From a virus (Duplodnaviria; Caudoviricetes), in the IMG/VR virus record IMGVR_UViG_3300025151_000039, positions 1-59,528 of that record: 59,528 nucleotides of DNA; one strand, given 5' to 3'. Positions 7,698-43,109 of this stretch are shown one piece after another. The position numbers and the translations under genes were made by a program. A model generated the notes under the pieces. It saw only the letters and a list, made by a program, of their open reading frames with translations. It searched no databases and was not told where the DNA came from. The stretch's first letter is position 1. Each line of letters opens with the position of its first letter.

Positions 7698-7771
7698 AGC
7701 GGATGGGTGAAACGGAAAATCATACAAGCCTCATAAGCTTGTGATAGCAGGTTCGACTCCTGTGTCCGCTA
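7698..7771 (+). tRNA. tRNA with CAU anticodon (elongator Met or Ile2)
   Basis: Acceptor AGCGGAT/GTCCGCT+A, D stem GTGA/TCAT, anticodon stem CAAGC/GCTTG with loop CT-CAT-AA, T arm GCAGG-TTCGACT-CCTGT. No encoded CCA; G at position 8. Confidence 0.88.
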
Positions 7772-7798
7772 CTATTTTTAAAATAAAATGGAGGTATA

Positions 7799-9716: not shown

Positions 9717-9878
9717 ATGAGAACTGATTTTTATAATATAAGATCAAAATTACCATCTGAGTTTCATGTTAGATGTGAGACTGTAAAGTGTCCTAATTAT
9801 TACAATACTAAGTATAAAAATGCTAATGGCTATTGTAAACCTTGTAATGATAAAAGAAAAGAGAAAGGAAAGGCATAA
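9717..9878 (+). CDS. Small zinc-finger protein (53 aa)
   Basis: AGGAG SD; CETVKC...YCKPC; TAATG coupling to the next ORF. Confidence 0.65.
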   Translation: MRTDFYNIRSKLPSEFHVRCETVKCPNYYNTKYKNANGYCKPCNDKRKEKGKA

Positions 9879-10297
9879 TGGCTCAAGTTGGACCAGGTTT
9901 ATGTATTAAATGCAAGGTAAAACCTAGACCAAAAAGATCTGATAGGAAGAATGCTTGGAGATCTATATGCTGGGGTTGTGCAGAGAAAACAAGGCCTAAT
10001 AGAAAAAAAGTAACAACAAAACAAAGATTTCCTAAAATTCATAAAAGACCATTTAGTCTTATTTGTGATATTTGCAATATTAAACCAAAAATTAAAAGAA
10101 CTGATAGAGAAAATTCCTACAGAATTTATTGCAGTAGTTGTGCTGCAAAAGTGTATTACACAAACTTAGATAAAAATTCTGATGTTTATATATCTAGACT
10201 TATAAAATCAAATGGATATACAGGTGAAATAACTAAAGAATTAATAGAAACAAAGAGACTTTCTTTAATGCTTTTTAGAGCTTTAAAAAAAGTTTAA
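9878..10297 (+). CDS. Basic tandem zinc-finger protein
   Basis: Four CxxC pairs in two similar repeats (CIKC..R.DR.N..RSICWGCA / CDIC..R.DR.N..RIYCSSCA). Confidence 0.75.
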   Translation: MAQVGPGLCIKCKVKPRPKRSDRKNAWRSICWGCAEKTRPNRKKVTTKQRFPKIHKRPFSLICDICNIKPKIKRTDRENSYRIYCSSCAAKVYYTNLDKNSDVYISRLIKSNGYTGEITKELIETKRLSLMLFRALKKV

Positions 10298-10645: not shown

Positions 10646-10838
10646 GGGGACTACGACTACCACACTTATGCATGGAGTCTATACCTCCTCCATGAACCAA
10701 CAGTAGTTCCCTCCTAATTACTTAGGAAGCGGAAAACGGATAGAATATAAGGCAGGCCCGGCAATTTAACACTGGGTTTTCATTTTCCTCCAGACTTTAG
10801 GGTCTGCCTTATTTAACGATAATTAAACAGGAGACTAA

Positions 10839-12779
10839 ATGGATAATAGTATACCATTCTTTCAATCTCAGGATAATCGTGGAGTTACTCAAAAAGCAGA
10901 AGCTTTATTACCAGATAATTTAGCTAGTTTTAGAGAAGTGACACTTTCTGATATTGAAAAGCAAGAGTTTAAATGTAAAGCTATTGCAACAATATTAAAT
11001 TACTTTCTAGGTTGGTATTTAAATGAAACTGATCTTCAAAGTAAACTGGGTCAATGTGAGACTCAAAGGGAAATTGAGGAAATATCTTCTATAAGACCTA
11101 TAAAATATACTGATACATTCAGAATGGCTCCTGGTGAAGCAAAGAGAGTGGCTGAAAGATTACAGTATATTCCATTAGTGTGGAGAGAAGATAGACTTGC
11201 TTATTATTATAATTACAGAGGTAGTAGAAATGTTTTACCTACTTCTAAATTGATCAAAAAGATCGACAGAAACCCTGCTGTCATAATTAATAAGTATAAA
11301 GTCAGGGGTAGTAGGAGCAATTATTACAATTCTACAAGAATGTTAGAAATTGCTAGTAATTTTTGGGATCCTGATTTTAATAATCAATGGGAACGATTGT
11401 TAGATCATCATCATAGAAATAACTATCCTGCAAGAGGTGTAGATAGAGATTATGAAGATTTAAGGTTAGAATATTTAATTAGATTTATTAGTCCAGGTAC
11501 TGTAGACTGGAATAATTATGATGGAGAGACTATCCAAAGTTCATACTATCAAAAAACTTCATTTGCTGCAGATTTATTCAACTATCTTAAAGATTCTTTA
11601 ACTATAAGAAGAAACACTCCTGAAATAGACTATTCTGACGAAGAAGACTATACAGAATTGAGAGAATTTCTTATAGAAAGATCTGAAGCTATGAATAAAG
11701 CCAATACTTTACTTAATGGAAAAGTTGAAATTACTGATGCTAGATTAATTAAAACAGCTCGTATGCTTAATATAGTATATAGAACTAAGTTAATTGAACC
11801 AAGTGTTATAATTAGACATCCTAGTGGTAATACTGATTACCCCGATTATGAACGTAAAGTAAAAGATGCTCATGGTGTAATTCATGATTTTATAGTTGGA
11901 ACTAGAGTGGGCATAGCTAAAACTTCAAATGGTTGGAGAGTTAGTAATATAAACATAGCTGGATACTCAACATCTACTCATCACAGGCCTGTATTATATA
12001 ATACTCACAATGTATTATCTAGGACTTCTAACAGCTTAAGACAAGTATTTGATGGAACTTCAGATTGTGTAGACTCTTTTGCAAATAATAATTGCTTTAG
12101 TGATCATGAGCCTACAATTAGAAGAAATACCAAAAAGCATGACTATCTTAGTCAAGGTTTGAATTTGCTAAGTTGGTATCAGATATATGTACCAGGAAGA
12201 ACTAATCCTTATGCTCAAACTAGAGATATATTCTTTGGTATTGGCAGAGATATTCCAGAATGGTATAAATCTCTTCATGACAGTGATACTAATTCTTGTA
12301 GATCTTTAATTAGAAGAAATTATGCTCATACTGTGGAGGGAAATCCAGCCCCTATATCTGAAATTGATGGTGAGATTTTAAAGAATATCAGCATTAATCA
12401 TTGCAACAATTGCTTTCATAGAAGCAGTGGAGCTGGTTGTGATGTGTTTGGCAGCATAGTTAGTAATAACTGGGGTGGAATCAATGAATATCAAAGAGTT
12501 ATTAGATCTTTAGATTCTGCAGAAGTTTGTGAACCAACTCCGGCAGCTATAGAAACTGTAGTTGAAGAAGTTTTAGGTTGTGAACACGGCAACTCTGGTC
12601 CTTCTAATTGTTTAGATTGCGATGAAGCTATAACAAATGGACTTACAGCTGCAGCGGAACCTGTATGTGAATCTATCACATTGGAAGAATCTATAGCTCA
12701 AAGAGTTGAGGAAGAAGAGGAAGCAGAACAGAGACGAATGATGGAACTAATGCAAGCCTGGAGTCAGGCAGAAAGGTAA
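10839..12779 (+). CDS. Multidomain protein with putative prokaryotic E2-like (UBC-fold) domain and Cys-rich C-terminus
   Basis: First gene of an operon with JAB, E1 and Ubl. NNC419FSDHEPTI...DY....LL.W...Y....TNPY resembles the Cys-plus-helices end of divergent prokaryotic E2s. HCNNC...C and CEH...CLDC clusters follow. The E2 call rests mainly on context. Confidence 0.5.
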   Translation: MDNSIPFFQSQDNRGVTQKAEALLPDNLASFREVTLSDIEKQEFKCKAIATILNYFLGWYLNETDLQSKLGQCETQREIEEISSIRPIKYTDTFRMAPGEAKRVAERLQYIPLVWREDRLAYYYNYRGSRNVLPTSKLIKKIDRNPAVIINKYKVRGSRSNYYNSTRMLEIASNFWDPDFNNQWERLLDHHHRNNYPARGVDRDYEDLRLEYLIRFISPGTVDWNNYDGETIQSSYYQKTSFAADLFNYLKDSLTIRRNTPEIDYSDEEDYTELREFLIERSEAMNKANTLLNGKVEITDARLIKTARMLNIVYRTKLIEPSVIIRHPSGNTDYPDYERKVKDAHGVIHDFIVGTRVGIAKTSNGWRVSNINIAGYSTSTHHRPVLYNTHNVLSRTSNSLRQVFDGTSDCVDSFANNNCFSDHEPTIRRNTKKHDYLSQGLNLLSWYQIYVPGRTNPYAQTRDIFFGIGRDIPEWYKSLHDSDTNSCRSLIRRNYAHTVEGNPAPISEIDGEILKNISINHCNNCFHRSSGAGCDVFGSIVSNNWGGINEYQRVIRSLDSAEVCEPTPAAIETVVEEVLGCEHGNSGPSNCLDCDEAITNGLTAAAEPVCESITLEESIAQRVEEEEEAEQRRMMELMQAWSQAER

Positions 12780-12782
12780 CTT

Positions 12783-13718
12783 ATGGAAAATAATTTCATA
12801 ATATCTCAAAATGATTGGGATACAATTATCGCTTATGCTCAAATGAGCTATGATAAGTGGAAAACTGAGATCGGCGGTATGTGTGTTGCCATTCTCGACA
12901 AAGAAACCAAAACAATGGTTATAAAAGACCCTGTAATAGGCAAGCAGGAAGTGTCTGGTACGCTTTGCACCTTGGATAAAGGATGGCTTGCTGATTATTA
13001 CATGGAAATGGCCATGAAGCATGGTACTGATGTTAGGTTTGTTTGGTGGCATAGTCATCATATGATGGGTGTGCAATGGTCAGGTACTGACACCTCTACA
13101 ATGAAAGAAGGTTCTAGCGGAGATTACTCTATGAGCTTAGTAGTCAATCTAAAGGGTGAACATACTTTCAGAGTTAGTTGGTGGAAACCAATGGCAGGTC
13201 ATATTGATACTAAAGTTAAAATAGCCGGTCCTGAATTTAGTGTAACTAAAGAGATGGAAGACAACTTTAACAATTTAGTGACAAAGGAAACTCGTGCTAT
13301 AGTTAAGACAACTACTTATGGTAACCGGTATAATGGTTATCATGATTGGAGAACTAAGTACAAACAACCTGGAAATTATGGACCTGGTTATGTAGATGCT
13401 GAACTCATGGATAAAACAGAATCTCTTCAAGAGAAATACTGTAACACCATGGAGTCCTTAATGGAAGAAGTATTTACTGATCAATTAAAATGGCCTCAGT
13501 TTATGAAGAGATGGGATAAAATTATAGAAGATGCTGGCGCACATGATATAATTATAGAACCATTTGAAAAGGATGATTATTCAGATATTTTATTAAAGGG
13601 ATTAATTCCAGATGCAACAGACTACTTTGAAAGCCCAGAACCCGGACTCTCTCTTCACAGAGACAGAGGAATCGGTGGATATGGGAATCCGTTACAGAAA
13701 AATCTGTGGGACGTTTGA
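12783..13718 (+). CDS. JAB/JAMM (MPN+) metallo-isopeptidase
   Basis: E29 ... H90-S-H92-x7-S100-xx-D103 (WWHSHHMMGVQWSGTD) is a complete JAMM motif. Confidence 0.92.
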   Translation: MENNFIISQNDWDTIIAYAQMSYDKWKTEIGGMCVAILDKETKTMVIKDPVIGKQEVSGTLCTLDKGWLADYYMEMAMKHGTDVRFVWWHSHHMMGVQWSGTDTSTMKEGSSGDYSMSLVVNLKGEHTFRVSWWKPMAGHIDTKVKIAGPEFSVTKEMEDNFNNLVTKETRAIVKTTTYGNRYNGYHDWRTKYKQPGNYGPGYVDAELMDKTESLQEKYCNTMESLMEEVFTDQLKWPQFMKRWDKIIEDAGAHDIIIEPFEKDDYSDILLKGLIPDATDYFESPEPGLSLHRDRGIGGYGNPLQKNLWDV

Positions 13719-14343
13719 TAAACATTTCTTTAGCATATTTGGTTGCGGCGCTATAGGTAGTGCTGCAGCCTTATGCTTGGTTAAACATAATGCTAAGAAT
13801 ATAGCTATTTATGATAATGATACAGTTAGTCCTGAAAATATAGGTATTAGTATGTATGAAGATCGAAATATAGGTGAAACTAAAGTCGATGCTTTGAAAT
13901 TAATACTTGAATCAGGTGGAACTAATAGAGATTTGCAGGTAGAAACTCATAAAGAGTGGCTAGACTATAACTCTTCGTTTAAAAGTCATAAAGGTAGCTT
14001 AAATATTGGCATTTTATGTTTTGATAACATGTTTTCTCGAAAAGAGATAGCAGGTTTGTGTTTTAGAGATAATTTTGATTATATAATAGATGCACGTATG
14101 GGTCGTGAACAGATTCAGTTGTATACTGTTAAAGATATTCAAACTTATGAGAGTTATTGGTATCCAGACTCTCAGGCAAGCGAAGATACTTGCGAAGAAA
14201 AAGGGACGCCAGATGTATCAATGATTTCAGGGTCATTAATAACATCTCAAATTAGAAAGATTATTAACAAGTCTTTCTACCCTGAAGAAATTTGTTTCCA
14301 CATTCCTAGTATGGCACTAGAATGTACAACCATGGTAAAATAA
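13681..14343 (+). CDS. ThiF/MoeB/E1-family ubiquitin-like activating enzyme
   Basis: IFGCGAIGS nucleotide-binding loop, YDNDTVSPENIG, GETKVDAL, CFDNMFSR, IDARMG and candidate catalytic Cys in EDTCEEK. Start placed at ATG 13681 (GGTGG upstream) rather than the track's 13612. Confidence 0.92.
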   Translation: MGIRYRKICGTFDKHFFSIFGCGAIGSAAALCLVKHNAKNIAIYDNDTVSPENIGISMYEDRNIGETKVDALKLILESGGTNRDLQVETHKEWLDYNSSFKSHKGSLNIGILCFDNMFSRKEIAGLCFRDNFDYIIDARMGREQIQLYTVKDIQTYESYWYPDSQASEDTCEEKGTPDVSMISGSLITSQIRKIINKSFYPEEICFHIPSMALECTTMVK

Positions 14344-14356
14344 CAAGGAGGGCTAT

Positions 14357-14563
14357 ATGCCTAGTATTCACTTAATGCATAACAGTGATTCATTTAACGC
14401 TACAGATGTTGATGCAACAAATGTAGGTGATCTTAAATCAGAGTTGGGAGTTCCAGCTACATCTCGTGTTAATGTTAACACTTCTGTAGCTCAGGATACA
14501 ACTTCTTTGAATGATGGTGACATTGTTGCTGTTGTTGCGAAAGATAAAAAAGGTGGAAAGTAA
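14357..14563 (+). CDS. Ubiquitin-like (beta-grasp, ThiS/MoaD-like) protein with C-terminal GG-K
   Basis: 68 aa; AAGGAGG SD; NVGDLKSELGV...VNVN......SLNDGDIVAVV..KKGG-K. Confidence 0.88.
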   Translation: MPSIHLMHNSDSFNATDVDATNVGDLKSELGVPATSRVNVNTSVAQDTTSLNDGDIVAVVAKDKKGGK

Positions 14564-14578
14564 GTATTAACTTACTGT

Positions 14579-14630
14579 CTCGGGAGGTTTTGGTTTACCT
14601 AGCCACATTTCTCCTCCCGAGGCCTTTTTT
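14579..14630 (+). terminator. Hairpin plus U-tract ending the Ubl operon
   Basis: CTCGGGAGG/CCTCCCGAG stem with an unusually large loop, followed by GCCTTTTTT. Confidence 0.55.
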
Positions 14631-14640
14631 AGGAGTATTT

Positions 14641-24623: not shown

Positions 24624-27600
24624 TTATTTTGTACAAGATTTAGATATTTTTCTATAAAACTCAGCGCCATCTCTAAGGATTTCTTTCCTTTTCTTAAAGC
24701 CTAATTTACGACTTCTACCCATAAACTCATTCTCAACAATTTGATCATTTTTAAGCTTTTTAGACCTGTTGTTAACTATAATATCACTAACACCCTCTGG
24801 ACCTCTTTGCGAAGCTCTAATGTCTTCAGCATATCTATAGGCATCCGTAGGAGATAGGTATCTTTCACCATTAATAAATTCGTTAATAGCTCTTATCTGA
24901 TGATCAGCTCCAAGGCCAGTCTTAACATCTCTATTTAATGATGCATTTTTAAGTCTATTCATTAGTCGATTTTTAGGATTATAAGAGAAGTCCATATTCA
25001 TTAAAGGAAGTCTATCATAACTATTATTCATATATGCACGACTCTGCATAGAAATAACCTTTCTTAATACATCTCCAAACATCATTGCCGTATCATGGTG
25101 TAGCTTAGTAAAATTGGTTTTATTACTAGCTTCATTCAAGTAGGTCATAACCGCTTTAGAGATCCCTGGGACTTCATAATAAGCGGCATCATAAGCATCG
25201 TAACCATCATGTATCTTATATTGAGCAACAACCTTTCTATTTATCTCAGGAGAAAGCATTCGATATACAAGCGCTTCTACTGCTAAAGGATCTGTAGGGC
25301 TAATACTTAGACCGTGTTTAGTTTGATTTCCACCTGTTAAATATTGATGAACTAAATTCCTTCTAGCAACACTTAACGCCATAGGATCTCCTTTGTGCAC
25401 ATCTGTTAAAGCGCTAAATTCATCTCTAAAAGAATCATAAAGAGGTTTAATTACAGACTCCATCTTGTTTCTATCAAAAACAACGTCTCCGCTTGTTGGC
25501 ATTGTATTAAAGGCTTGGTATTTTGATTTTAATATCCTGTTTTGCTCGGGATGAGTAATTTCAAATCTTCTTCCATTCATTATAGCGATGTCACTTTTTG
25601 CAATAGGAAGCCTATTAGTAGAGCCTTTTCTAATAACCTGCTTGATATTCTTACCCTTACTATCCCATACTACGTAAGTGTTCTTACCAGCATTATACTC
25701 ATTAGCTCCAAAACCCTTATTAAATGTAACTTTATTAATATCTTGCATTTTATCTATTTCAGACCCAAGTACCATCTGTAAGTCAGAGGCAGCTTCATTT
25801 AGTTCATTTAGGGATTTTCTAACACTTTGAAGTTCTGCCTCTCTATCGTACTTAGAATTTGATAAATAGCTTTCTTGCGATTTTAAATATCTTATTTTAT
25901 CATTAAGTTTTGATAGTTCAACAAAAGAGCCTTCTTGTTTGACATATTTATATAAATCTGAAGCTAATGTAGATGAATAATCAGTTTCATTTAATAGCTT
26001 ATTTTCAGCTTGAAGTAGTATTTTAGATATTCCAAACGTATCATTTGCATTTTTTCTGCTATAATTAGAGTTATATATCCTAGCTAATTGATCAGTAGCT
26101 ATGTCAAAAGGATTTCTTGATATTTTAAAATAATCCTGAACCTGCTTAATGCCTGAAGTAAGATCTACAGAAAGATCTGTATCGTCTGTCTTCCCAAGCT
26201 TTGTATTCCAGTTATTCTTAGGATCAAAAGAGTTCTCTAAGTCTAATCTTCCAAAGTAAATATCTTTTAACTTTAAAGCTTTAGATGATACACCATCAGA
26301 AACTTCACCTCTATTATATCTTAAATATTTTGATAACGGAGATATTACTTTAAAATTAATAAAATCTCTAACACTATCTCTATCTCTAATAGAAAGAACT
26401 TTTTGCTCGTTTTTGGTATCAACCATTTCAAATATGCCATTAAAATCTCTACCTGCTTCACTAGACCAAGATCGTCCTTTTCTAGTACCAAAGAATATGT
26501 CACTTATAAACATCTCTATCTGGTCTGCAGATGGCGGTTTTTCATAACTATCAATAAACTCTTTTGTAGCGCCAGATATTTCGCCAACAGCATCTAAATA
26601 AGCATCAACATCTTTCATTCTTAATGTATACTCTTGAGTACCCATCTTAACTCTTCCTAGCTCACCATTCATCCCAATTGCATTTTGGAGATATGTAAAT
26701 ATATTATGAAGCTTAACAAATCTTCCTCTAGTAACCAGCGACTGCTGTTGAACACTTCCCCAGTTCCTTATATCAGCACTGTTCTGAATGTTTGTATCAA
26801 ACCTTTCTAGTAATAAATTTAGATTAGATTGACGAGCTCCATAACCACTTCTAGCCGCTGCCTCAAAAAGCAGGCGAGAAGGCATTGCTCCGTAAGCGCT
26901 TGATTTGTCAAAGTCAAAATCTGCATCTTGTGGAGATATTGCATCTATTATATTCTGACGCCCAATATTACCTACATCAGTATGCTCCTCGACATAATTA
27001 ACCGCTTGATCTTTTAATTCTCTTATAAGTTTTTTGTGAGCATCGCTACCCTCTATATATATGACCTTATCATCACCTCTCCTTTTACCATCTTTGTTGA
27101 TAAACATATCTCGCAATATATAAGAGCCATCTTTTCTGCGTTTAATCTTTTTAGCGAATCTTAATTTACCACCTCTAGCTATTGCCCCTTGCTGCATTGA
27201 CTCTAGCTGTCTTTGAGCTTCTATTGGAATATAACGGTTATTCAGGCCTGGAGACACAATCCAAATATCCAGAGGCTCGCCATCTGCTGATTTTATAGTA
27301 GGATGCTCTCTCATATCTACATGAACATCATATATTTTTTTACCAGAGCTATCACGATACACAGAACCTTTTGTTCTTCCTTTTGGATCAAGAGGGAGTA
27401 CATCTCCTTGAACACCTGCTCCTTTTGTTTTAGAAGGAGGTACTACTTTGTTAATAACAATATCATTTATCTCATTACGAGGCTGTCTATTATTAGCCAT
27501 TCCTATGTTAATCTTGTTTGTAAAACCAAGGTTGTCAATTAAGTTTTGAACTTGATAGTTGGTCAAAGCAACTTCTTCTCCATGCTCTGAAGCTTTGCGA

Positions 27601-30600
27601 ATATCATCTATTTCTTTGGAAATTAAATCGTCTAAAGCTTTATACTCGTCAAGAATATCTTTTCTTACTTTTGCATTATAATCTTTACTGTCTTTGTTCC
27701 CTAATTTTTCCAGATCTTTAGGCTTAGGGTCTCCTTTTTTAGAAGAAGCTAGAGGGTCTCTTAGCGAGCCATTCTCCATTAACTCATATCCGTCTACCAT
27801 TATAGTAAACTTTTTACCCTCTCTACCTTGTCCTAACTCAGGAATAACAATCATATCAGATGAGATTTCAGTATCTTCAAACATCCCTTTAAATTTCTTT
27901 CCAGAAAATATAAAGAATCCACCTGACCCAGGATCAGAACCGTCGTGAATACCAAACCTTGAAAAGTCCATAGACATATGTCTAGAAGAAGGAGAATATG
28001 TACCAAAAAATCTTTGTGAATATTTTTCACTAGTCATTCCATTGATACTTTTATTAGACTCAACCAATCTAATAGGAAGTGATTGCTCTGAAATTTTCCC
28101 ATGTAAATCAGGAGCCATTGGTGCATAATCTGATGAAAATGCTTCACCTGATGCAATCTTGCTTTGACTAAAGAAGTGAGTAAACAGCTTATCTGCAGAC
28201 ATATCACCCATCCAAGAATCCAATATTAAGCCACTAGTTTCCATCACAGCTTCAAGTGGAGAAGAGTTTAAATAATTATCACCTTCTATTCGTTTTAAAT
28301 CTAAAAGTTTTTGAGTTATTCCTGTAAGATTTTCAGGATTAGTATTCATCTGTCTAAGTACAGTTCCGAAAGTATGTAAGGTTTTATCAAGACCTATATG
28401 ATCTCTAACGCCTAAATCGTGAGGAAGATGAACGCCAATATTAGCTCCAAAATTAGCATTATGCTCTCTACTTAAATTGCCTATTGTAGTAGCGTTATAA
28501 GGAACCTCTATTATCATATCTGAGTTAGTAGAGCTATTAATATAATCCCCTATATTTTCTACCATAGTGTTTTTTACATTACCCGGAGTATCAATCATTT
28601 TGGCAAATCCACCGTCTGTTTCACCTGCTTTTCTATGTCTATTGACTTTTGCCCCGGTATTAAATGCTAGAGCATCTGCACCCGCTTCTTTTAACATTAA
28701 GTCTATAATTGGATCGTAGAAAAAAGCTGTTTTATTATAGAACATACTAACAGCACCATCTTGCATTACTTCAGAATATCCAACTTTTGGTTTTATCGCG
28801 CCAATCTTAACACTGCTTATGTTGCCATCACCGTCTAAGTTAAACCACTCTCTTCGTGCACCTATAGTAGATAGGAATAATAAATAATCTTCCTTTGTTA
28901 AATAAGTGGGAGCATCTGTAGCACTTTTAGCAACTTTAGCGTGTCTGTCTTTAACTTGCTTTATTTGCTCTGCTGTTAGATTGTGATCCGCAGCTCTGTC
29001 ATTTAAGAATTTATCTAAAATTCTATTACTATCAAATACAGATCCATCAGACTCATCATTAATAACTAAATACTTTTGCTTTTTCTTTACACCTGCAGCA
29101 TCACCGATTCTATCAAGCTGTGTTGTAATTTCTTTTATCCAAGGATCTGTATTAGTATCAACTTTATTATATACATGCCGTAAAAGACCGTAATAATTAT
29201 CCTCTAATACCTTTCCATTCAAAGAGCCTATTAATTTTCTTCTTTTAACTAGGTTGGCATCTGCTTTTTGAGCTTCTGCTTTTGTATATAAAGGCATTGT
29301 AACTGACTGATATATCATTTGTATTGCATCAGCTAGGTCTGTATTAGACATGTCTTTACTTGTAAACCTAGGGTCAATGTCTTGGCCTAATAAATCCTTT
29401 AATTCTTTTATCTTACCACCTTCAGACAGAGACTCTCTGACGTAATTAACAGCTTTTTCAGTTGGAACTAATAAAGTTACAGACTCATTTAAATAAACTC
29501 TAGTCATCGCTTCTTTTTCTACAACATTCTCAGCTATAGATTTTAGCTCAGCATCAGAAGTACCTTCCAGCATAGCTTGAACCCTGGTTCTTCTAGAGTC
29601 TTTTTGAAGCTCTCCAGACTGCAGCCTAGCATCCATATCTATAGATTCTTGATTACTAGGTAGTATGTCATCTTTCCAAGTTTGAGTGCCATCTTTCAAG
29701 GTTACAGGAGATTTGATTACTTTATCCATTAAATACCAGTCAGATGACCCTATGAGATCAAACATCTTCATAATACCGTGGCCAGCATCAATAACCCTAT
29801 CCTTACTAAACTCTAGATGAGTGCCATGATATGCAAGTTTTTTAACTTCTCTTTTTGTAGATGCATGCATTATCTGTAATACATCTGTTACCAAGTCAGA
29901 AGTAAGAGGTTTTGCATCAGGCATAACTGCGGGACCCATTTCAGGAGAGTATCCTGTAGTAGCTCGCTCTATTAAAATGTCTGCAGTATCGTAGAGAATG
30001 CCTAAAGCACCGGCCTCATCTCCTTGCTTCATATAGCTTTCATAAATATCAGAAGTATTTTTTATAATCGTCTGAACATCTGAAGTAGGCAGGTTGTAGT
30101 TATTAGCAAATTTATCTATCGTTGTTGTAACATCCATTTCATGATGCTTATCTTTCAACTCAGGACGAACTTTGTCTAGCTCTTTCTTAATATTTTCTCT
30201 TAGAAGATGGTAGTTTGTTTCGTTTCCTGCTAAATTATTTTGAATATCTGTTAAGAAATGAGTAGTCAATGCATTATTTTTCCAAGCCTTAGCAAGGGCT
30301 GCATCAAAAGTATCAACACCTTCTTTCGTAGCTTTTTGTATAAACTTATTTATCTGATCAACAAAATCGCTTTTAGTTATTGATGTTAGTTGAGCAATTC
30401 TTTCATAATCTCTCAATATAAATAAATCAGATATATGATTCTTAATATCATCAAGCTCTTTTAATAAAGCTCCAATTTTTTTAACCCCTTCATCCTTTAA
30501 GTTTTGATTTACAAACTCATTGTCTGCTATTAAAGATTTGTTTTCTTTTAAAGAATTTGCAATTTTTCCTCCAAGAGCAGATACATCTTTTATACCTCCC

Positions 30601-33600
30601 AAGGCATATCTTGCTTGAGATCTTCTTAAGAATGCAACCATTTCAGTTCCAACTGCGTCTTTTCCAACTGCATTTTTAATTGTTTTTAAAGTGTTTTCTC
30701 CACCAGAAAACTTAAGCATATTAGATGTCCCTGCAGCGTCTACAGCACTTTCTAGTGTTCTGTAAAACTGCATAAGCTCATTAACAACATCGACATCTTG
30801 GCCATCATTAATCAAGAATCTTTCCAACTCTTTAGATGAAGGCATTTCATATCTTCCATTTCTTTTTGTAGCAAAATAATCTCTAATTGGAGAAGCTGAG
30901 CTACCACTTGAACTGAAATCAGTTATAAGAGAAGATATACCTTGAGAAATTGAGAATCTTGCATCACTATCTAACAATCTTAGGTTATTAATAAACTCAC
31001 TTTGCATATAGTTTTTAACATCACTAAAGCCTTTATCACTAAAAGTGTCAATACCAAGGGTGCCTTCAGCGACTTTTTTAAGCTCATTTATCTTTTCTAA
31101 TGATATTTCTGACACACCTTTATCAGCATTACCTCCTGAAGCAGCATGCAGCTCTTTTACTCTAGTTAAAAAAGTATTAGCTTCTGCTATAGCTTCTGCA
31201 CTAGCATTGGAGTCGCCTATAAGTATTGATGTATTAGAGCCTACTCTGATTTCTTGAAGCTTGTCTCTTAAACGCTGGGAAGCTTCTTTATCTAAAAATG
31301 TCATTTTGTTAAGAGAAATATCTGAAAATATAGAAGCTGCGTTTATTGACTGCTCTAAAGTTCTTCCTTGAACATAAGCAGCCCTCATAGTTCTATCTGA
31401 AAGTATATACTTATCAATATAGTTATGCTCTTGGTTGCCCCATATTTCATACTGCATTGTTTCATTAGCGTTTGTAAACGCTTTTTCAATCATCGCAACT
31501 CGTTCAGGAGTTAGATCTGCAAGCTCTCTTTTGCCTCCAAGCTTAATAGTTCCATCAGCAACACCGTCTCTAACTAAAGTATTTAATACATCGGCAATGA
31601 TAACACCATCTTTAGATTGAAATTTAGCGCCATTGATATTTGTAAAATCCGGTATCGTCATCCTGCCATTTGAATCAAATTCAATAGTTTGACCTGTTAG
31701 CTGTTGATAAACATCTCGAACAAAATTCCCTGTAGCTGCACTATAAGTATCACTTGTCTTTACAATCGCCTCAGCTTCGATCTCTCTTAGAGTCATGTCT
31801 ATATCTTTAGAATCTCTGACAGCAGGTATGCTATTTAGTTCTTTAATTACCTGGCCAGCACCATCTTTAGACATTAGTTTTTGCAAATAATCTTTAGACA
31901 CAACGTGATTGTCGTAATGATTAAATACCTTTAAAGCTTTATTATACTTTCTTTGAGCATCTGCTTGCTGATCTGCAGGTAAAGACCTAACCCAGTCCAT
32001 GCCGGCAAGTTCAAAAGATTGAGAGTCTGGGCCTACATCACCTATCTCTTCCATGTGAGTATACTCTTTGCCTAAAACCTCATCTATGCCTTCATAGCTA
32101 GATGTTTTTAATAACTTAGTCTTTATAATATTTTGACCATTTGACTGCTCTCTAAAGAAGCCAGTTTTTTGTAATGGCTCTAACATTGAAAGTGATTTTT
32201 GCATTTGATCAACAGCTTCTCTGCTAGCTAAAACTCTTTGTTCGTAATCCTTTCCACCTCCTGGTCCTAGAAATCTTTTAGGCCCTTTAGTGCTATGCTC
32301 GAACATCCAAAATCCACCTTCTGTATTATGAGTACTTCTTCCACCTTTAGATAGGACCATGCCCATCATCATGTTGGTTAGTATTTCAGGAGTATCTGAG
32401 CCTAATGCATTCCATACTTTCCAGTCACCACCTGTTGCTTTATAGTAATCAGCAAAAGCAGGTATATTCATGGCGACACCACCTGCAAGCATTCTAGGTG
32501 TACTTCCCCAGACATCTCTCATGAGCTCACTACCAATATTATTTCTTAATCTTTTTCCAAACTCTTTCCTAGTATCAAACATCATTTTACGGAGCTCTTT
32601 TGTTTTAACACCTTTATCAGCAGCATAATCAAGAAGACTTTTCTTTCCTAGCGCTTTCTCAAACAATAAAGATACTTCTCCTTTAGATGCTCCAGGGACT
32701 TTAGATACTTGATCTATAAAGTGTAAAGCATTGCCCATTTCTCCTCTAGTCATATTCTTGATAGGTGTATAAGACTTTCTTACAGCGGACCAATTATTTT
32801 TAATGTCATCCCATAATCCTACTCTACCACCTTTAATTAATCTAGCCGGGCCAGTAATACCAAACATTAAAGCATGGTGTTGTATATTTCGGATTCTCTC
32901 ACCTAGATCACCTTTTAAGGCTATTCTATGCTCTTCGTTTTGAGGAAGATTTAGAAGAGAGTCATCTATTGTGCCTTTCTCTCCATATACACGCTTCATA
33001 GCTTCTTCTGTGCCCATTTTAATTAATTGACCAGCGCTATGATATGTAATACCAAGTGTCGCCTCGGCTAAAGCCGCATCAACAACTGCTTTAAATGTTT
33101 TATTTTTCATACCTAAAGGAAGCGCATCTGCTAATCTTTCAGTGCCCATTCCTATTAATTTATGATAATCTCTAGAATTGTACTTTAAAGCTTTTTGAAC
33201 AATGCCTGATGCTAGTTCTTGAGCGGCTTCTGTAGATATTTTTTCACCACCTTCTTTTAAAATAGCAGCGCTTATATCATCTGTAGCTTTAGTTATAGCT
33301 TGCATGTTATTTTTAAATACACCTCTATTGCCAACTTCAGATAGCATTTCCTGGCCAATTTTAATATATGGTTGTAATCCAGCCTCAAAAGCCTCTTTAG
33401 ACCCAGCTTCTACTCCTTCACCAACTATTTGAAATGCTTTAGGGATATTATTAGTTACTGTTGCTGTGGCATATTTATCTGCAAGCTCAGAGCCCATTCT
33501 CTTTTGCAGGCCTTTAGATATAGGACTAGCTACTTTAGACAATGTGTTTGACCCAGCTCCTAAAAGCTTACCAGCCCAGCCGAATGAAAAAGCCATTCCC

Positions 33601-33986
33601 AGTCCTTGACCAAGTATATAACCCACTCTTCCTGAAGCAGACTGCTCTTCCCATGGGCGATAAGTACCAAAAGCTATTTTTTCTCTAGCTGCTTGCCCTT
33701 TTTCAGTCAAAGCGGCAACATCTAGCGCTCCCCACGAGGCTCCAGAAGCAGTTCCCCATACTACATTACCGAGGAAGTCTTGAACCATACCTGTGTCAGA
33801 TTCAGTAACTTGCCCAGGATTTGATAGAGCTTGATATTCTTTCATAAATAAAGAATGTGCGTCTGAATTTTGACTTATAGGCTCATCCGCGTTAATATTA
33901 AAAGAATCAGGATTTTGAACACCAAATTTATTAACCTTATTTAGCTCTCTTAAAAGCTCCATTTCTTCCATTAATGTTCTAGCCAT
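24624..33986 (-). CDS. Giant virion protein with putative double-psi beta-barrel RNA polymerase (crAss/phi14:2 gp66-like)
   Basis: DAD2356FDFD2360K catalytic-type loop, upstream R2167QP, and DALAFNTGAK1780V / YNKTAF lysine-containing segments; located among internal virion genes. Confidence 0.75.
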   Translation of the reverse strand: MARTLMEEMELLRELNKVNKFGVQNPDSFNINADEPISQNSDAHSLFMKEYQALSNPGQVTESDTGMVQDFLGNVVWGTASGASWGALDVAALTEKGQAAREKIAFGTYRPWEEQSASGRVGYILGQGLGMAFSFGWAGKLLGAGSNTLSKVASPISKGLQKRMGSELADKYATATVTNNIPKAFQIVGEGVEAGSKEAFEAGLQPYIKIGQEMLSEVGNRGVFKNNMQAITKATDDISAAILKEGGEKISTEAAQELASGIVQKALKYNSRDYHKLIGMGTERLADALPLGMKNKTFKAVVDAALAEATLGITYHSAGQLIKMGTEEAMKRVYGEKGTIDDSLLNLPQNEEHRIALKGDLGERIRNIQHHALMFGITGPARLIKGGRVGLWDDIKNNWSAVRKSYTPIKNMTRGEMGNALHFIDQVSKVPGASKGEVSLLFEKALGKKSLLDYAADKGVKTKELRKMMFDTRKEFGKRLRNNIGSELMRDVWGSTPRMLAGGVAMNIPAFADYYKATGGDWKVWNALGSDTPEILTNMMMGMVLSKGGRSTHNTEGGFWMFEHSTKGPKRFLGPGGGKDYEQRVLASREAVDQMQKSLSMLEPLQKTGFFREQSNGQNIIKTKLLKTSSYEGIDEVLGKEYTHMEEIGDVGPDSQSFELAGMDWVRSLPADQQADAQRKYNKALKVFNHYDNHVVSKDYLQKLMSKDGAGQVIKELNSIPAVRDSKDIDMTLREIEAEAIVKTSDTYSAATGNFVRDVYQQLTGQTIEFDSNGRMTIPDFTNINGAKFQSKDGVIIADVLNTLVRDGVADGTIKLGGKRELADLTPERVAMIEKAFTNANETMQYEIWGNQEHNYIDKYILSDRTMRAAYVQGRTLEQSINAASIFSDISLNKMTFLDKEASQRLRDKLQEIRVGSNTSILIGDSNASAEAIAEANTFLTRVKELHAASGGNADKGVSEISLEKINELKKVAEGTLGIDTFSDKGFSDVKNYMQSEFINNLRLLDSDARFSISQGISSLITDFSSSGSSASPIRDYFATKRNGRYEMPSSKELERFLINDGQDVDVVNELMQFYRTLESAVDAAGTSNMLKFSGGENTLKTIKNAVGKDAVGTEMVAFLRRSQARYALGGIKDVSALGGKIANSLKENKSLIADNEFVNQNLKDEGVKKIGALLKELDDIKNHISDLFILRDYERIAQLTSITKSDFVDQINKFIQKATKEGVDTFDAALAKAWKNNALTTHFLTDIQNNLAGNETNYHLLRENIKKELDKVRPELKDKHHEMDVTTTIDKFANNYNLPTSDVQTIIKNTSDIYESYMKQGDEAGALGILYDTADILIERATTGYSPEMGPAVMPDAKPLTSDLVTDVLQIMHASTKREVKKLAYHGTHLEFSKDRVIDAGHGIMKMFDLIGSSDWYLMDKVIKSPVTLKDGTQTWKDDILPSNQESIDMDARLQSGELQKDSRRTRVQAMLEGTSDAELKSIAENVVEKEAMTRVYLNESVTLLVPTEKAVNYVRESLSEGGKIKELKDLLGQDIDPRFTSKDMSNTDLADAIQMIYQSVTMPLYTKAEAQKADANLVKRRKLIGSLNGKVLEDNYYGLLRHVYNKVDTNTDPWIKEITTQLDRIGDAAGVKKKQKYLVINDESDGSVFDSNRILDKFLNDRAADHNLTAEQIKQVKDRHAKVAKSATDAPTYLTKEDYLLFLSTIGARREWFNLDGDGNISSVKIGAIKPKVGYSEVMQDGAVSMFYNKTAFFYDPIIDLMLKEAGADALAFNTGAKVNRHRKAGETDGGFAKMIDTPGNVKNTMVENIGDYINSSTNSDMIIEVPYNATTIGNLSREHNANFGANIGVHLPHDLGVRDHIGLDKTLHTFGTVLRQMNTNPENLTGITQKLLDLKRIEGDNYLNSSPLEAVMETSGLILDSWMGDMSADKLFTHFFSQSKIASGEAFSSDYAPMAPDLHGKISEQSLPIRLVESNKSINGMTSEKYSQRFFGTYSPSSRHMSMDFSRFGIHDGSDPGSGGFFIFSGKKFKGMFEDTEISSDMIVIPELGQGREGKKFTIMVDGYELMENGSLRDPLASSKKGDPKPKDLEKLGNKDSKDYNAKVRKDILDEYKALDDLISKEIDDIRKASEHGEEVALTNYQVQNLIDNLGFTNKINIGMANNRQPRNEINDIVINKVVPPSKTKGAGVQGDVLPLDPKGRTKGSVYRDSSGKKIYDVHVDMREHPTIKSADGEPLDIWIVSPGLNNRYIPIEAQRQLESMQQGAIARGGKLRFAKKIKRRKDGSYILRDMFINKDGKRRGDDKVIYIEGSDAHKKLIRELKDQAVNYVEEHTDVGNIGRQNIIDAISPQDADFDFDKSSAYGAMPSRLLFEAAARSGYGARQSNLNLLLERFDTNIQNSADIRNWGSVQQQSLVTRGRFVKLHNIFTYLQNAIGMNGELGRVKMGTQEYTLRMKDVDAYLDAVGEISGATKEFIDSYEKPPSADQIEMFISDIFFGTRKGRSWSSEAGRDFNGIFEMVDTKNEQKVLSIRDRDSVRDFINFKVISPLSKYLRYNRGEVSDGVSSKALKLKDIYFGRLDLENSFDPKNNWNTKLGKTDDTDLSVDLTSGIKQVQDYFKISRNPFDIATDQLARIYNSNYSRKNANDTFGISKILLQAENKLLNETDYSSTLASDLYKYVKQEGSFVELSKLNDKIRYLKSQESYLSNSKYDREAELQSVRKSLNELNEAASDLQMVLGSEIDKMQDINKVTFNKGFGANEYNAGKNTYVVWDSKGKNIKQVIRKGSTNRLPIAKSDIAIMNGRRFEITHPEQNRILKSKYQAFNTMPTSGDVVFDRNKMESVIKPLYDSFRDEFSALTDVHKGDPMALSVARRNLVHQYLTGGNQTKHGLSISPTDPLAVEALVYRMLSPEINRKVVAQYKIHDGYDAYDAAYYEVPGISKAVMTYLNEASNKTNFTKLHHDTAMMFGDVLRKVISMQSRAYMNNSYDRLPLMNMDFSYNPKNRLMNRLKNASLNRDVKTGLGADHQIRAINEFINGERYLSPTDAYRYAEDIRASQRGPEGVSDIIVNNRSKKLKNDQIVENEFMGRSRKLGFKKRKEILRDGAEFYRKISKSCTK

Positions 33987-38167: not shown

Positions 38168-38428
38168 CTAACCTATCTTTGTTCTTACGATATTATTATT
38201 GCCGTCTAAAAGATCTGCCCATCCGTTTTTAGTTCTTATTTGAAGCTTATCTCCTTCTGAAGCAGAAATAACTCGAATATCCCCCTCTTTTCCTCCTGTA
38301 TTAGAGACAGCTTCAGTGTTAGGCTGATTCACAGCATCTATTAATTCATTTAAATGATTATAAATATCATTAATTGCTCTTTGTAAGTCAGGGTCTGATA
38401 CAGTAGCTCCTCTTTTTTTACTTATCAT
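38168..38428 (-). CDS. Small virion-associated hypothetical protein
   Basis: 86 aa, coupled to the 1281-aa tail gene. Confidence 0.6.
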   Translation of the reverse strand: MISKKRGATVSDPDLQRAINDIYNHLNELIDAVNQPNTEAVSNTGGKEGDIRVISASEGDKLQIRTKNGWADLLDGNNNIVRTKIG

Positions 38429-42716: not shown

Positions 42717-42717
42717 G

Positions 42718-43048: not shown

Positions 43049-43109
43049 AGTGATTGTAAAAAATCCAATTTAATAGCTAAAAGTCCTTGCTGAAAATACA
43101 AAGTAATCA

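What the first reader, a model, noticed from the sequence alone, without database searches (positions are those of the whole stretch)
10839..14563. Phage-encoded ubiquitin-like conjugation operon: E2-like, JAB, E1, Ubl(GG-K)
Seen: four contiguous co-oriented genes closed by a terminator, with an intact JAMM motif, a ThiF/E1 with candidate catalytic Cys, and a 68-aa beta-grasp protein whose GG is masked by one extra Lys. No thiamine, molybdopterin, cysteine or tRNA-thiolation genes are present. Known: JAB proteases trim Ubl precursors to expose GG, and bacterial E1-E2-JAB-Ubl operons (Bil, Bub, CBASS Cap2/Cap3) conjugate proteins, in Bil as anti-phage defence. Inference: here a phage with no evident lysogeny genes carries the whole pathway in its early region. 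It could modify host proteins, counter host Ubl defences or exclude competing phages.
Basis: partly seen in the sequence, partly recalled or inferred. Interest (0 to 1): 0.92.

Follow-up and report, generated by a model that had tools for sequence, protein, structure and literature searches.

The report
Phage ubiquitin-like activation module, novel partner
A marine phage carries, next to its DNA-replication genes, a small ubiquitin-like protein with the enzyme that activates it, a protease that trims or removes it, and a large cysteine-bearing protein of unknown fold. More than forty related phages share this four-gene set, and no comparable phage system turned up in my literature searches.

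Summary
Four co-oriented genes (10839-14563) end at a real terminator hairpin. They encode a 646-aa protein (X), a JAMM/JAB peptidase with an intact motif, a minimal ThiF-type E1 with a conserved loop cysteine, and a 68-aa ThiS-like protein ending GG-K.

The module recurs in 43 other viral or metagenomic loci. In a distant subgroup the Ubl gene has moved to just upstream of X and ends exactly in GG. So the four genes are one unit, and JAB does more than unmask GG.

The "E2-like" label for X is not supported. Pfam, PADLOC, NCBIfam and a PDB profile search found nothing. A confident AlphaFold model (pLDDT 84) has no significant PDB fold match and no UBC match.

X does have an invariant Cys419 and four more conserved cysteines. 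It has no invariant acid, base or lysine, and it evolves much faster than its neighbours.

My best reading (about 0.5) is a phage Ubl conjugation and deconjugation pathway, with X as a new-fold Cys acceptor or ligase. The main rival (about 0.25) is a sulfur-carrier system.

crAss-like gut phages hold a JAB-ThiF pair in the same replication-module position. I rate this a new variant of a known kind, of high interest, with function unproven.

The parts
10791..10815 (+). Terminator-like hairpin that closes the upstream gene and sits before the module. It is followed by an AGGAG ribosome-binding site for X.
   Evidence: Consensus scan; sequence read.
10839..12779 (+). Protein X, 646 aa. It has a novel fold, an invariant Cys419, a conserved Cys cluster, an acidic disordered linker (about residues 563-614) and a conserved C-terminal helix (M638, W641). 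It is a candidate Ubl acceptor or ligase.
   Evidence: ORF. No family hit. Family alignments A2 and A5. AF2 pLDDT 84.2. No PDB fold match.
12093..12095 (+). Codon of Cys419 of X, invariant in 55 of 55 aligned family members.
12297..12440 (+). Conserved Cys cluster of X (C487, C522, C525, C534). It is a putative metal site; whether Zn or Fe-S is undetermined.
   Evidence: C525 is invariant; C487, C522 and C534 are kept in >= 90% of 55 sequences. Coordinates.
12783..13718 (+). JAMM/JAB metallopeptidase, 311 aa. The catalytic domain spans about residues 1-166. The C-terminal half is variable.
   Evidence: Pfam Prok-JAB E 0.031 and PADLOC JAB E 0.002, both below cut-offs. Motif alignment to archaeal Rpn11-like 6fjv, E 0.14. 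Conservation analysis.
13050..13091 (+). JAMM motif H90-x-H92-x7-S100-x2-D103. The upstream Glu29 lies at 12867.
   Evidence: Invariant in 43 of 43 homologues. Coordinates.
13681..14343 (+). Minimal ThiF-family E1 adenylyltransferase. It is 220 aa from the ATG at 13681; the longest ORF starts at 13612 (243 aa). It overlaps the JAB gene.
   Evidence: Pfam ThiF 1.1e-16. PDB ThiF 1zud 2e-5. NCBIfam hits are all far below equivalog cut-offs. Start-site reading.
14191..14193 (+). Codon of the E1 loop Cys (Cys194 of the 243-aa ORF). It aligns with the ThiF loop Cys.
   Evidence: (40 of 42). It also aligns with a Cys of crAss001 gp76.
14357..14563 (+). ThiS-like ubiquitin-like protein, 68 aa, ending K64-G-G-K68.
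   Evidence: Pfam ThiS E 1.9e-4, borderline. The nearest Atlas cluster is a virus-only 'ThiS family' cluster, score 0.96. Alignment A6.
14552..14560 (+). Codons of G66, G67 and K68: a diglycine masked by one basic residue.
   Evidence: The ending is GG-K or GG-R in 4 of 4 close relatives with the gene.
14578..14632 (+). Intrinsic-terminator hairpin (9-bp GC-rich stem, long loop, U run) that closes the module.
   Evidence: Fold -26.8 kcal/mol, z -4.0. Sequence.

Best explanation
The four genes form one phage-encoded ubiquitin-like modification module, expressed with the replication genes.

Proposed steps, all inferred and none shown biochemically:
1. The JAMM peptidase removes Lys68 and exposes Gly66-Gly67 of the ThiS-like protein.
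2. The minimal ThiF-type E1 adenylates Gly67 with ATP and probably takes the Ubl onto its loop Cys194.
3. The Ubl passes to protein X, most likely onto the invariant Cys419. X is a new-fold protein with a Cys4 metal site that does the job of an E2/E3-type carrier or ligase without being a UBC-fold E2.
4. From X the Ubl goes to lysines of phage or host proteins.
5. The JAMM peptidase also reverses or edits these adducts.

The targets and the benefit to the phage are unknown. Candidates are host takeover, control of replication proteins, or interference with host Ubl-based defence.
For: Linkage:
- Across 43 other loci (4 metagenomic, 39 viral), the X-family gene is followed by JAB in 42 of 43 and by E1 in 41 of 43. 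The misses are loci that end too early.
- The close group keeps the order X-JAB-E1-Ubl.
- The distant group has Ubl-X-JAB-E1. The Ubl gene lies within about 5-200 nt upstream of X in 32 of 32 loci that have room.
- The Ubl gene changed place yet stayed in the module.

Activation chemistry:
- GG is invariant (20 of 20).
- The E1 keeps the GxGxxG motif, two Asp, Lys, the Mg-site Asp, the N-terminal Arg and the loop Cys.

JAB is more than a maturase. In the distant group the Ubl already ends GG-stop in 30 of 32 loci (GG+9 and GG+11 residues in the other two), yet JAB is always present with an intact motif.

X as acceptor:
- Across 55 sequences the only invariant residues are C419, W446, P457, G467 and C525. 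C487, C522 and C534 are kept in >= 90%.
- There is no invariant Lys, Asp, Glu, His, Ser or Arg. This fits a thiol carrier with a metal site better than a small-molecule enzyme.

X evolves fast. X is 35% identical to the L003/L004 copy, against JAB 54%, E1 69%, Ubl 75%, Sak4 81% and primase 86%. This is as expected of a specificity or interface component.

Predicted X-Ubl complex: weak support only.
- Median score 0.40 (runs 0.40, 0.48, 0.39); best of 3 controls 0.00.
- The mark was reached by 58 of 80 solved complexes and 2 of 110 mismatched pairs. At scores of 0.60 or under it was reached by only 7 of those 80 and by both mismatches that passed.
- The runs share >= 88% of contacts and the partner pLDDT is >= 82. 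No interface was given.

No sulfur-acceptor or sulfur-mobilising gene was found in 38 scanned ORFs.
Against: - X is not a recognisable E2. There are no hits in Pfam, PADLOC, NCBIfam or the PDB profile search. The Foldseek PDB best E is 0.12 with no UBC chain among the 50 listed. A phage 'CBASS E2 domain' protein appears in BFVD only at rank 19, E 0.69, prob 0.09.
- ThiS-like Ubl + ThiF + JAB is equally the make-up of sulfur-carrier systems, including ones with residues after GG that a JAB removes (recalled: QbsCDE, HcyS/HcyD, CysO/Mec+).
- The best-scoring named relatives of the E1 are ThiF and MoeB models, all far below cut-off.
- The canonical Arg of the E1 'NLxRQ' ATP-contact motif is replaced (N-I-G-I-S). 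The role of that Arg is recalled.
- The beta-grasp assignment of the Ubl rests on a borderline Pfam score. Only 3 of 20 family members hit ThiS at E <= 0.01, and the PDB profile search found no Ubl.
- Five conserved cysteines could also be an Fe-S site of a thiolation enzyme.
- The complex score is weak, and no conjugate, thioester or target has been observed.
Confidence: 0.5

Rival explanations
1. Sulfur-carrier system. The E1 adenylates the Ubl. A host persulfide donor converts it to a thiocarboxylate. X, through its conserved cysteines and perhaps an Fe-S cluster, uses that sulfur to thiolate a substrate such as phage DNA, a nucleotide or a tRNA. JAB trims Lys68 and hydrolyses covalent Ubl-product adducts.
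For: - The Ubl's best family match is ThiS, and the E1's best matches are ThiF/MoeB models.
- The E1 is a minimal 220-aa ThiF-like enzyme with no E2-binding extras.
- JAB-dependent removal of residues after GG and hydrolysis of carrier-product adducts are known in sulfur-carrier pathways (recalled: QbsD, HcyD, Mec+). Iyer et al. 2006 discuss ThiS/MoaD-JAB-E1 neighbourhoods tied to sulfur assimilation (PMC1779556, passages read).
- X has five conserved cysteines and no UBC fold.
- The module sits among DNA-metabolism genes.
Against: - No rhodanese, cysteine desulfurase, PP-loop ATPase, ThiG, MoaE, PLP enzyme or other known sulfur acceptor was found in 38 scanned ORFs.
- X has no nucleotide-binding or PP-loop motif. 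It has no invariant polar catalytic residue other than Cys.
- X diverges far faster than its neighbours (35% against 81-86% identity), which is unusual for an enzyme of fixed small-molecule chemistry.
- No sulfur-containing modification is known to me for such phages (recalled, not searched).
Confidence: 0.25
2. E2-independent conjugation, as in archaeal SAMP/UbaA/JAMM1 or Thermus TtuB. The E1 alone activates and transfers the Ubl. X is not a carrier but the main substrate, an adaptor, or a protein whose activity the Ubl regulates.
For: - The make-up (ThiS-like Ubl, single MoeB/ThiF-like E1, JAMM peptidase, no recognisable E2) is the same as in those systems. Their make-up is recalled. NCBIfam gives a weak hit to the SAMP-activating E1 UbaA, E 8.7e-4, far below cut-off.
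- X has no UBC fold.
- The tight Ubl-X gene coupling in the distant group and the weak predicted X-Ubl contact (0.40 against controls 0.00, with the calibration caveats given above) fit a substrate as well as a carrier.
Against: - No lysine is conserved across the X family, so a fixed acceptor lysine on X is unlikely.
- The invariant Cys419 then needs another explanation.
Confidence: 0.15
3. Assembly or processing device like lambda TAPI/TAPK. The Ubl domain is a chaperone-like module cut by JAB during morphogenesis. Alternatively the four genes are merely neighbours without a common pathway.
For: Phage Ubl + JAB pairs are known from lambdoid and T1-like tail-assembly clusters (PMC1779556, passages read).
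Against: - The module is on the replication-gene strand block, beside the Sak4-like annealing protein and the primase-helicase. It is far from the portal, capsid and tail genes.
- It includes an E1, which tail-assembly clusters lack, and no NlpC/P60 domain.
- Synteny of all four genes in 32 of 32 and 42 of 43 loci argues against chance neighbourhood.
Confidence: 0.05

Closest known systems
Archaeal SAMP / UbaA / HvJAMM1 and Thermus TtuB/TtuC systems (make-up recalled from the literature)
   Same: Both have a small ThiS/MoaD-like protein ending GG, one MoeB/ThiF-type E1, a JAMM peptidase that matures and deconjugates, and no UBC-fold E2. In those systems one Ubl can serve both sulfur transfer and protein conjugation.
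   Different: Here the genes are viral and the E1 is a minimal 220-aa form. Its hit to the UbaA model is only E 8.7e-4, far below cut-off. A fourth, invariably linked 500-650-aa Cys-rich protein of unknown fold has no counterpart there.
Bil (BilABCD) anti-phage system (abstract of 10.1101/2023.09.04.556158 seen in the listing)
   Same: Both are four-gene sets of Ubl, E1, JAB-type deconjugase and a Cys-bearing partner.
   Different: Bil is bacterial and defensive, and its partner is a UBC-fold E2. Here PADLOC gives only a weak BilD hit for the E1 (E 2e-5) and nothing for the Ubl or X. X shows no UBC fold. The carrier is a lytic-looking phage.
Type II CBASS Cap2 (E2-E1 fusion) / Cap3 (JAB) (abstract of PMC10097602 seen in the listing)
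   Same: Both have a ThiF-type adenylation domain and a JAB peptidase acting on a C-terminal glycine.
   Different: This module has no CD-NTase and no E2 domain fused to the E1. The PADLOC 'E1-E2' hits (best 4.3e-10) cover only the Rossmann part of the phage E1. A separate ThiS-like Ubl is present.
JAB-containing sulfur-carrier pathways: QbsCDE, HcyS/HcyD/HcyF, CysO/Mec+ (recalled)
   Same: Both have a ThiS-like carrier with extra residue(s) after GG that a JAB-type metalloprotease removes, and a ThiF-type E1.
   Different: Those operons include the acceptor enzymes (CysM, MetY, quinolobactin enzymes) and sulfur-supply genes. None is in this phage.
crAss001 gp79-gp78-gp77-gp76 and the same block in other Steigviridae (GenBank annotations)
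   Same: - A JAMM metalloprotease (gp77; BLASTP to the window JAB E 5e-7 over the motif; Pfam Prok-JAB 4.9e-4) is followed by a ThiF protein (gp76; BLASTP 2e-14 with the loop Cys aligned and the same missing Arg).
- The block lies inside the replication module next to the primase.
- It is preceded by an unannotated ~400-aa protein with a single invariant Cys and by a protein whose N-terminal ~90 aa end in a K-K-I-K-S-G motif.
   Different: Homology of gp78 to X and of gp79 to the Ubl is not shown (hhalign E 0.14 and 0.006, probabilities under 7%; BLASTP none). The crAss E1 and JAB are longer, the Ubl-like part is fused to a C-terminal domain, and it ends SG rather than GG.
Lambda/T1 tail assembly proteins TAPI (Ubl) and TAPK (JAB + NlpC/P60) (PMC1779556, passages read)
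   Same: Both are phage-encoded Ubl and JAB pairs with a conserved C-terminal glycine.
   Different: TAPI/TAPK is a tail-module context with no E1 and with an NlpC/P60 domain. Here the context is the replication module, an E1 is present and there is no NlpC/P60.
Bub pathways (PMC11601596, abstract and outline read)
   Same: Both are diverged, non-canonical bacterial-type Ubl pathways with an E1 and a peptidase.
   Different: According to that abstract, Bub works through oxyester intermediates and its operons encode a serine protease. The outline lists its peptidase-E1 fusion as lacking a catalytic cysteine. Here the E1 Cys and X Cys are conserved and the peptidase is JAMM.

Membership tests
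ThiF/MoeB/E1 adenylyltransferase superfamily (the E1 gene) | Rossmann-type ATP-binding fold with GxGxxG, the Asp pair, Lys and the Mg-binding Asp | tested here: met
   Pfam PF00899 E 1.1e-16, 61 bits against a cut-off of 28. PDB ThiF 1zud E 2e-5 with the motifs aligned. The motifs are invariant in 42 of 42 homologues.
ThiF/MoeB/E1 adenylyltransferase superfamily (the E1 gene) | Arg of the 'NLxRQ' motif that contacts ATP (role recalled) | tested here: not met
   The aligned column is Ile within N-I-G-I-S. The same loss is seen in crAss001 gp76. The N-terminal Arg of the 'RY.R' motif is kept in 42 of 42.
Orthologue of ThiF, MoeB, UbaA or Cap2 (NCBIfam equivalogs) | Score above the curated equivalog cut-off | tested here: not met
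   The best hit is TIGR02356 ThiF, 55.5 bits against a cut-off of 275. The others are lower.
JAMM/JAB (MPN+) metallopeptidases | The E ... HxH-x7-S-xx-D zinc and catalytic motif | tested here: met
   E29, H90, H92, S100 and D103 are invariant in 43 of 43. The motif aligns to archaeal Rpn11-like 6fjv. The family HMM scores are below cut-off (Pfam 14.6 against 25 bits).
ThiS/MoaD-type beta-grasp Ubl | A small beta-grasp domain | tested here: inconclusive
   Pfam ThiS 22.3 bits against a cut-off of 22.5. Only 3 of 20 family members hit at E <= 0.01. The PDB profile search found no Ubl. The nearest Atlas cluster is a viral 'ThiS family' cluster, score 0.96, with 25% of members carrying PF02597. 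No stand-alone structure was predicted.
ThiS/MoaD-type beta-grasp Ubl | C-terminal Gly-Gly | tested here: met
   GG is invariant in 20 of 20. It is at the very end in 30 of 32 distant loci, and followed by K or R in the 4 close ones.
   AF2 model pLDDT 84.2. Foldseek against PDB gives 0 matches at E <= 0.001, best 0.12, and no E2 among the 50 listed. BFVD lists a CBASS E2 domain protein only at E 0.69. This rests on a predicted model.
   No hit in Pfam at E <= 1, PADLOC at E <= 1, NCBIfam at E <= 0.1 or the PDB profile search at E <= 10.
   Cys419 is invariant in 55 of 55. That it is catalytic is not shown.
Bil (BilABCD) defence system | BilA, BilB, BilC and BilD homologues in a bacterial defence locus | tested here: not met
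   PADLOC gives only BilD at E 2e-5 for the E1 and generic JAB models at E 0.002-0.04. There is nothing for the Ubl or X. The locus is a virus genome.
Type II CBASS Cap2/Cap3 | E2-E1 fusion with a CD-NTase partner | tested here: not met
   The E1 is a stand-alone 220-243 aa protein. The PADLOC E1-E2 hits cover only its residues ~25-120. No CD-NTase family is found in the scanned ORFs.
Sulfur-carrier pathways (thiamine, Moco, CysO, Qbs, Hcy, TtuA/B) | An acceptor or sulfur-mobilising enzyme encoded alongside | tested here: not met
   None is found among the 38 scanned ORFs of the complete phage genome. Host enzymes could still serve.
Sulfur-carrier pathways (thiamine, Moco, CysO, Qbs, Hcy, TtuA/B) | Formation of a Ubl thiocarboxylate | not testable with these tools
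   This needs biochemistry.
Lambda-type TAPI/TAPK tail-assembly Ubl-JAB | Tail-module context with a JAB fused to NlpC/P60 | tested here: not met
   The module lies between Lar-like genes and the Sak4-like and primase genes. No NlpC/P60 hit was found.

The most novel reading that the evidence does not exclude
A virus-specific ubiquitin-like conjugation pathway whose carrier or ligase is a new-fold Cys + Cys4 protein rather than a UBC E2. The pathway would be embedded in the replication module and shared, in diverged form, by a large clade of marine podophage-like viruses and by crAss-like gut phages (gp79-gp76 of crAss001). It would tag host or replisome proteins during infection. That would make Ubl conjugation a weapon of phages as well as of bacterial defence, and it would add an independently evolved E2/E3-like enzyme class.
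Probability: 0.3. Interest if true: 0.92.

Novelty: new variant of a known kind. Interest (0 to 1): 0.78.

Why it matters
- Ubl-E1-JAB systems in prokaryotes are known as sulfur carriers and, more recently, as anti-phage defences (Bil, CBASS type II, Bub). A complete activation and deconjugation set carried by lytic-looking phages, fixed next to their replication genes in more than 40 contigs, would turn that picture round. It raises the question of what a phage gains by tagging proteins, or by thiolating something.
- The obligate partner X has no relative in any curated library or solved structure, yet it folds confidently. This offers either a new enzyme class for Ubl transfer or a new Ubl-dependent sulfurtransferase.
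- If the positional parallel in crAss001 is real, the question becomes testable in a cultured phage-host pair from the human gut.
- In the window's clade K64 directly precedes GG. Trypsin would therefore leave a diGly remnant on targets, so standard K-epsilon-GG proteomics could find them (inference from the sequence).

Tried and rejected
- **First AF2 model of X.** With only 5 sequences it was unusable (pLDDT 43.4). I replaced it with the 55-sequence run.
- **UBC-like motif in X.** X and its distant relatives carry an 'H-P ... G-x-V-C-x-D ... W ... N-P-Y-N-x-P' pattern, which recalled the UBC 'HPN ... C ... W ... NP' pattern. That is a resemblance from memory only. Foldseek, the PDB profile and three HMM libraries do not back it. 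I do not file X as an E2, though a very derived UBC-like core cannot be excluded.
- **Atlas search with X.** No usable hit.
- **Nucleotide similarity.** blastn of the module against GenBank phages gave no match.
- **X in GenBank phages.** tblastn of X and of a distant X (P0033) gave no match.
- **Related loci with single proteins.** The search for related loci on viral contigs with X, the E1 or P0021 found nothing. Only alignment-based patterns worked.
- **X in cellular genomes.** No X relative in 185,579 species-representative bacterial and archaeal genomes with patterns from A4 and A2. The patterns are narrow, so this is weak evidence of absence.
- **Homology to crAss001 proteins.** X against gp78 and Ubl against gp79 are not significant. 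I keep these as positional parallels only.
- **PHROGs.** Only unknown-function families matched the E1.
- **Programmed frameshift fusing JAB to E1.** The genes overlap and E1 is in the +1 frame. I considered this but did not pursue it: relatives have differently placed overlaps and their own start codons.
- **Literature.** Eight full-text searches found no description of a phage E1-JAB-Ubl module in a replication region or of crAss ThiF function. Subscription papers and supplements are not covered. A term search of the Chambers et al. preprint for phage-encoded, prophage and viral-genome wording gave 0 occurrences.

Full report
**What the window is.** The window is a whole IMG/VR virus record: 59,528 bp, linear, CheckV 100%. 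It encodes a P22-like portal, a small-terminase-like protein, an SU10-type capsid protein and adaptor, an SLT-domain tail or injection protein and several giant proteins with no family, all on the minus strand. A plus-strand block (about 6-21.4 kb) holds Lar-like zinc-finger proteins, the finding, a Sak4-like annealing protein, a primase-helicase and a PD-(D/E)XK nuclease. No integrase or repressor family appeared among the 38 ORFs scanned. There is no nucleotide match to GenBank phages. Homologues come from marine metagenomes, including TARA entries.

**The observation.**
X and JAB are 3 nt apart. JAB and E1 overlap. E1 and Ubl are 13 nt apart with an AAGGAGG site.
- A terminator-like hairpin precedes the unit (10791-10815).
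- A strong hairpin with a U run follows it (14578-14632; -26.8 kcal/mol, z -4.0). The consensus scan missed it because of its long loop.
- The JAMM motif is complete (E29, H90, H92, S100, D103) and invariant in 43 of 43 homologues.
- The E1 is a ThiF-family protein (Pfam 1.1e-16). It aligns to E. coli ThiF through the ATP motifs and the loop Cys, and Cys194 is kept in 40 of 42.
- The E1 lies far below every NCBIfam equivalog cut-off. It is therefore not an orthologue of ThiF, MoeB, UbaA or Cap2.
- The E1 lacks the Arg of the 'NLxRQ' motif. It probably starts at 13681, where an SD-like sequence sits.
- The 68-aa protein is ThiS-like at a borderline score. Its nearest ESM-Atlas cluster is a virus-only 'ThiS family' cluster. 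It ends K-G-G-K.

**Relatives and linkage.**
- X has few close relatives (4). A profile search of 1.84 billion representatives found 14 proteins at E <= 1e-10, plus about a dozen ~500-aa proteins that match only residues ~414-550.
- These led to a larger family and to 39 viral contigs.
- tblastn with the window's proteins shows JAB after the X-like gene in 42 of 43 loci and E1 in 41 of 43. The misses are truncated loci. A Sak4-like gene and usually the primase follow.
- The close group keeps X-JAB-E1-Ubl, with the Ubl ending GG-K or GG-R.
- In the distant group the Ubl gene sits directly upstream of the X-like gene in 32 of 32 loci with room. tblastn found 22 of these and ORF inspection found 10 more.
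- There the Ubl ends exactly in GG in 30 loci, and in GG plus 9 or 11 residues in two.

Three conclusions follow:
- The four genes are a functional unit, because the Ubl gene moved but stayed inside it.
- The C-terminal diglycine is the constrained feature.
- JAB cannot be only a maturase, because it is retained with an intact motif where nothing needs trimming.

**What X is.**
- X has no hit in Pfam, PADLOC or NCBIfam, only noise in PHROGs, and none in a PDB sequence-profile search.
- The first AF2 model was poor. With the 55-sequence alignment A5 the model is confident except for residues 122-126 and the acidic linker 563-614 (pLDDT 84.2, pTM 0.75).
- Foldseek against PDB gives nothing at E <= 0.001. 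The best match is 0.12, and the listed matches are cystatin/NTF2-like sheets and assorted others. No E2 appears.
- Against BFVD, seven matches at E <= 0.001 are uncultured-virus proteins: six without a name in the tables at hand and one called only 'Uncharacterized protein'. They are presumably family members. A phage 'CBASS E2 domain' protein appears only at E 0.69.
- So the UBC-fold claim fails the one fold test I could run, with the caveat that the model is predicted.
- Across 55 sequences the invariant residues are C419, W446, P457, G467 and C525. C487, C522, C534, P384, Y450, Y476, M638 and W641 are kept in >= 90%.
- No acidic, basic, His, Ser or Lys residue is invariant. That profile fits a thiol carrier with a metal-bound scaffold and a docking helix better than a classical enzyme. 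It also fits an Fe-S protein.
- X evolves much faster than its neighbours: 35% identity where Sak4 and primase are 81-86%. The divergence is spread evenly along the protein.
- A predicted X-Ubl complex gave weak support only: 0.40, 0.48 and 0.39 against 0.00 for three controls. See the calibration counts in the For line.

**Mechanism.** I commit to a Ubl conjugation and deconjugation pathway in which X takes the place of E2/E3 (confidence 0.5). The steps shown by sequence are the presence and conservation of the catalytic motifs and the GG end. Every chemical step is inferred. The sulfur-carrier reading (0.25) uses the same three core proteins and cannot be excluded. It is weakened by the absence of any acceptor or sulfur-supply gene in the complete genome, and by X's pattern of conservation and its rate of change. 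An E2-independent, SAMP-like scheme with X as substrate or adaptor gets 0.15. A tail-assembly-like role or mere neighbourhood gets 0.05.

**Comparison with known systems.** The module works most like the archaeal SAMP/UbaA/JAMM1 or Thermus TtuB systems (recalled), and like Bil in having four parts. It is a member of none: the Bil, Cap2 and UBC membership features were tested and not met. It differs from the lambda TAPI/TAPK pair described by Iyer et al. 2006 (passages read) in context, in having an E1 and in lacking NlpC/P60.

**An unexpected parallel.**
- tblastn of the E1 against GenBank phages hits 46 records, nearly all Crassvirales of the family Steigviridae.
- In crAss001 the ThiF gene (gp76, annotated 'thiamine biosynthesis protein') follows a JAMM metalloprotease (gp77). 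That follows an unannotated 444-aa protein (gp78) and a 225-aa protein (gp79), right after the primase.
- The same block is found in six other records.
- The gp79 N-terminal ~90 residues end in a conserved K-K-I-K-S-G motif. In phage cr106_1 this part is a separate 92-aa gene, cut off from the rest by an HNH endonuclease gene.
- gp78 has a single invariant Cys behind an invariant H-S-H.
- E1 and JAB homology to the window's proteins is significant. Ubl/gp79 and X/gp78 homology is not.

**Novelty.** Eight full-text searches found no description of such a phage module. Phage ThiF genes appear in annotations as 'thiamine biosynthesis'. I rate the finding a new variant of a known kind: a Ubl-E1-JAB core in a new carrier (phages), in a new context (the replication module), with a new obligate partner of unknown fold. 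Interest 0.78.

Noticed in passing
L045:2235-6645 (crAss001 gp79-gp76); L046-L050, L052: crAss-like phages of the Steigviridae carry, right after their primase, a block of four genes: a protein with a Ubl-like N-domain (ending K-K-I-K-S-G), a ~400-aa protein with one invariant Cys, a JAMM protease and a ThiF E1. This mirrors the Ubl-X-JAB-E1 order of the marine phages. Homology is shown only for JAB and E1.
   Followed up: partly
L052:665-1868 (uncultured phage cr106_1): The Ubl-like domain is a separate 92-aa gene ending K-S-G-K-F. An inserted HNH endonuclease gene splits it from the C-terminal part of the gp79 homologue. This natural split marks the domain boundary.
   Followed up: partly
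window 42717-43931 (minus strand): A 272-aa class II aminoacyl-tRNA-synthetase-core protein (Pfam tRNA-synt_2, E 2.2e-16) lies next to a phage tRNA-Asn gene. It could be an AsnA-like or truncated AsnRS-like enzyme. A tRNA-Met lies at 7698-7772.
   Followed up: no
window 24624-33986 and 38425-42270 (minus strand): There are giant ORFs of 3120 and 1281 aa with no Pfam hit (the 1281-aa one also has no PHROG hit), in the structural block. No DNA polymerase was recognised anywhere in the genome.
   Followed up: no
window 9717-10297: Two small proteins rich in CxxC pairs lie just upstream of the module. The 139-aa one has weak Lar-like restriction-alleviation hits (Pfam E 0.0027; phrog_6795 E 8.8e-5).
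   Followed up: no
window 13612-13718: The JAB and E1 genes overlap by 38 nt (107 nt for the longest E1 ORF), with E1 in the +1 frame. Overlaps of other lengths occur in relatives: 83 nt in L003 and 107 nt in L005.
   Followed up: partly
window 10839-12779 versus L003/L004: X is only 35% identical between phages whose Sak4-like and primase proteins are 81-86% identical. This suggests diversifying pressure or allele exchange at this gene.
   Followed up: partly
L033, L038, L039, L042 and others, ~300 nt upstream of the Ubl gene: A small ORF (80-144 aa) ending in a conserved F-x-W-x-G-N-x-Y motif recurs just upstream of the Ubl gene in several distant-group loci. Its function is unknown.
   Followed up: no
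window 12700-12779 (X C-terminus) and the gp79 C-termini in L045-L052: X ends in an acidic disordered linker followed by a conserved helix (M..W-A). crAss gp79 proteins end in a charged linker followed by a conserved E-I-x-x-M-F-x-F tail. These may be analogous docking tails. This is a resemblance by eye only.
   Followed up: no
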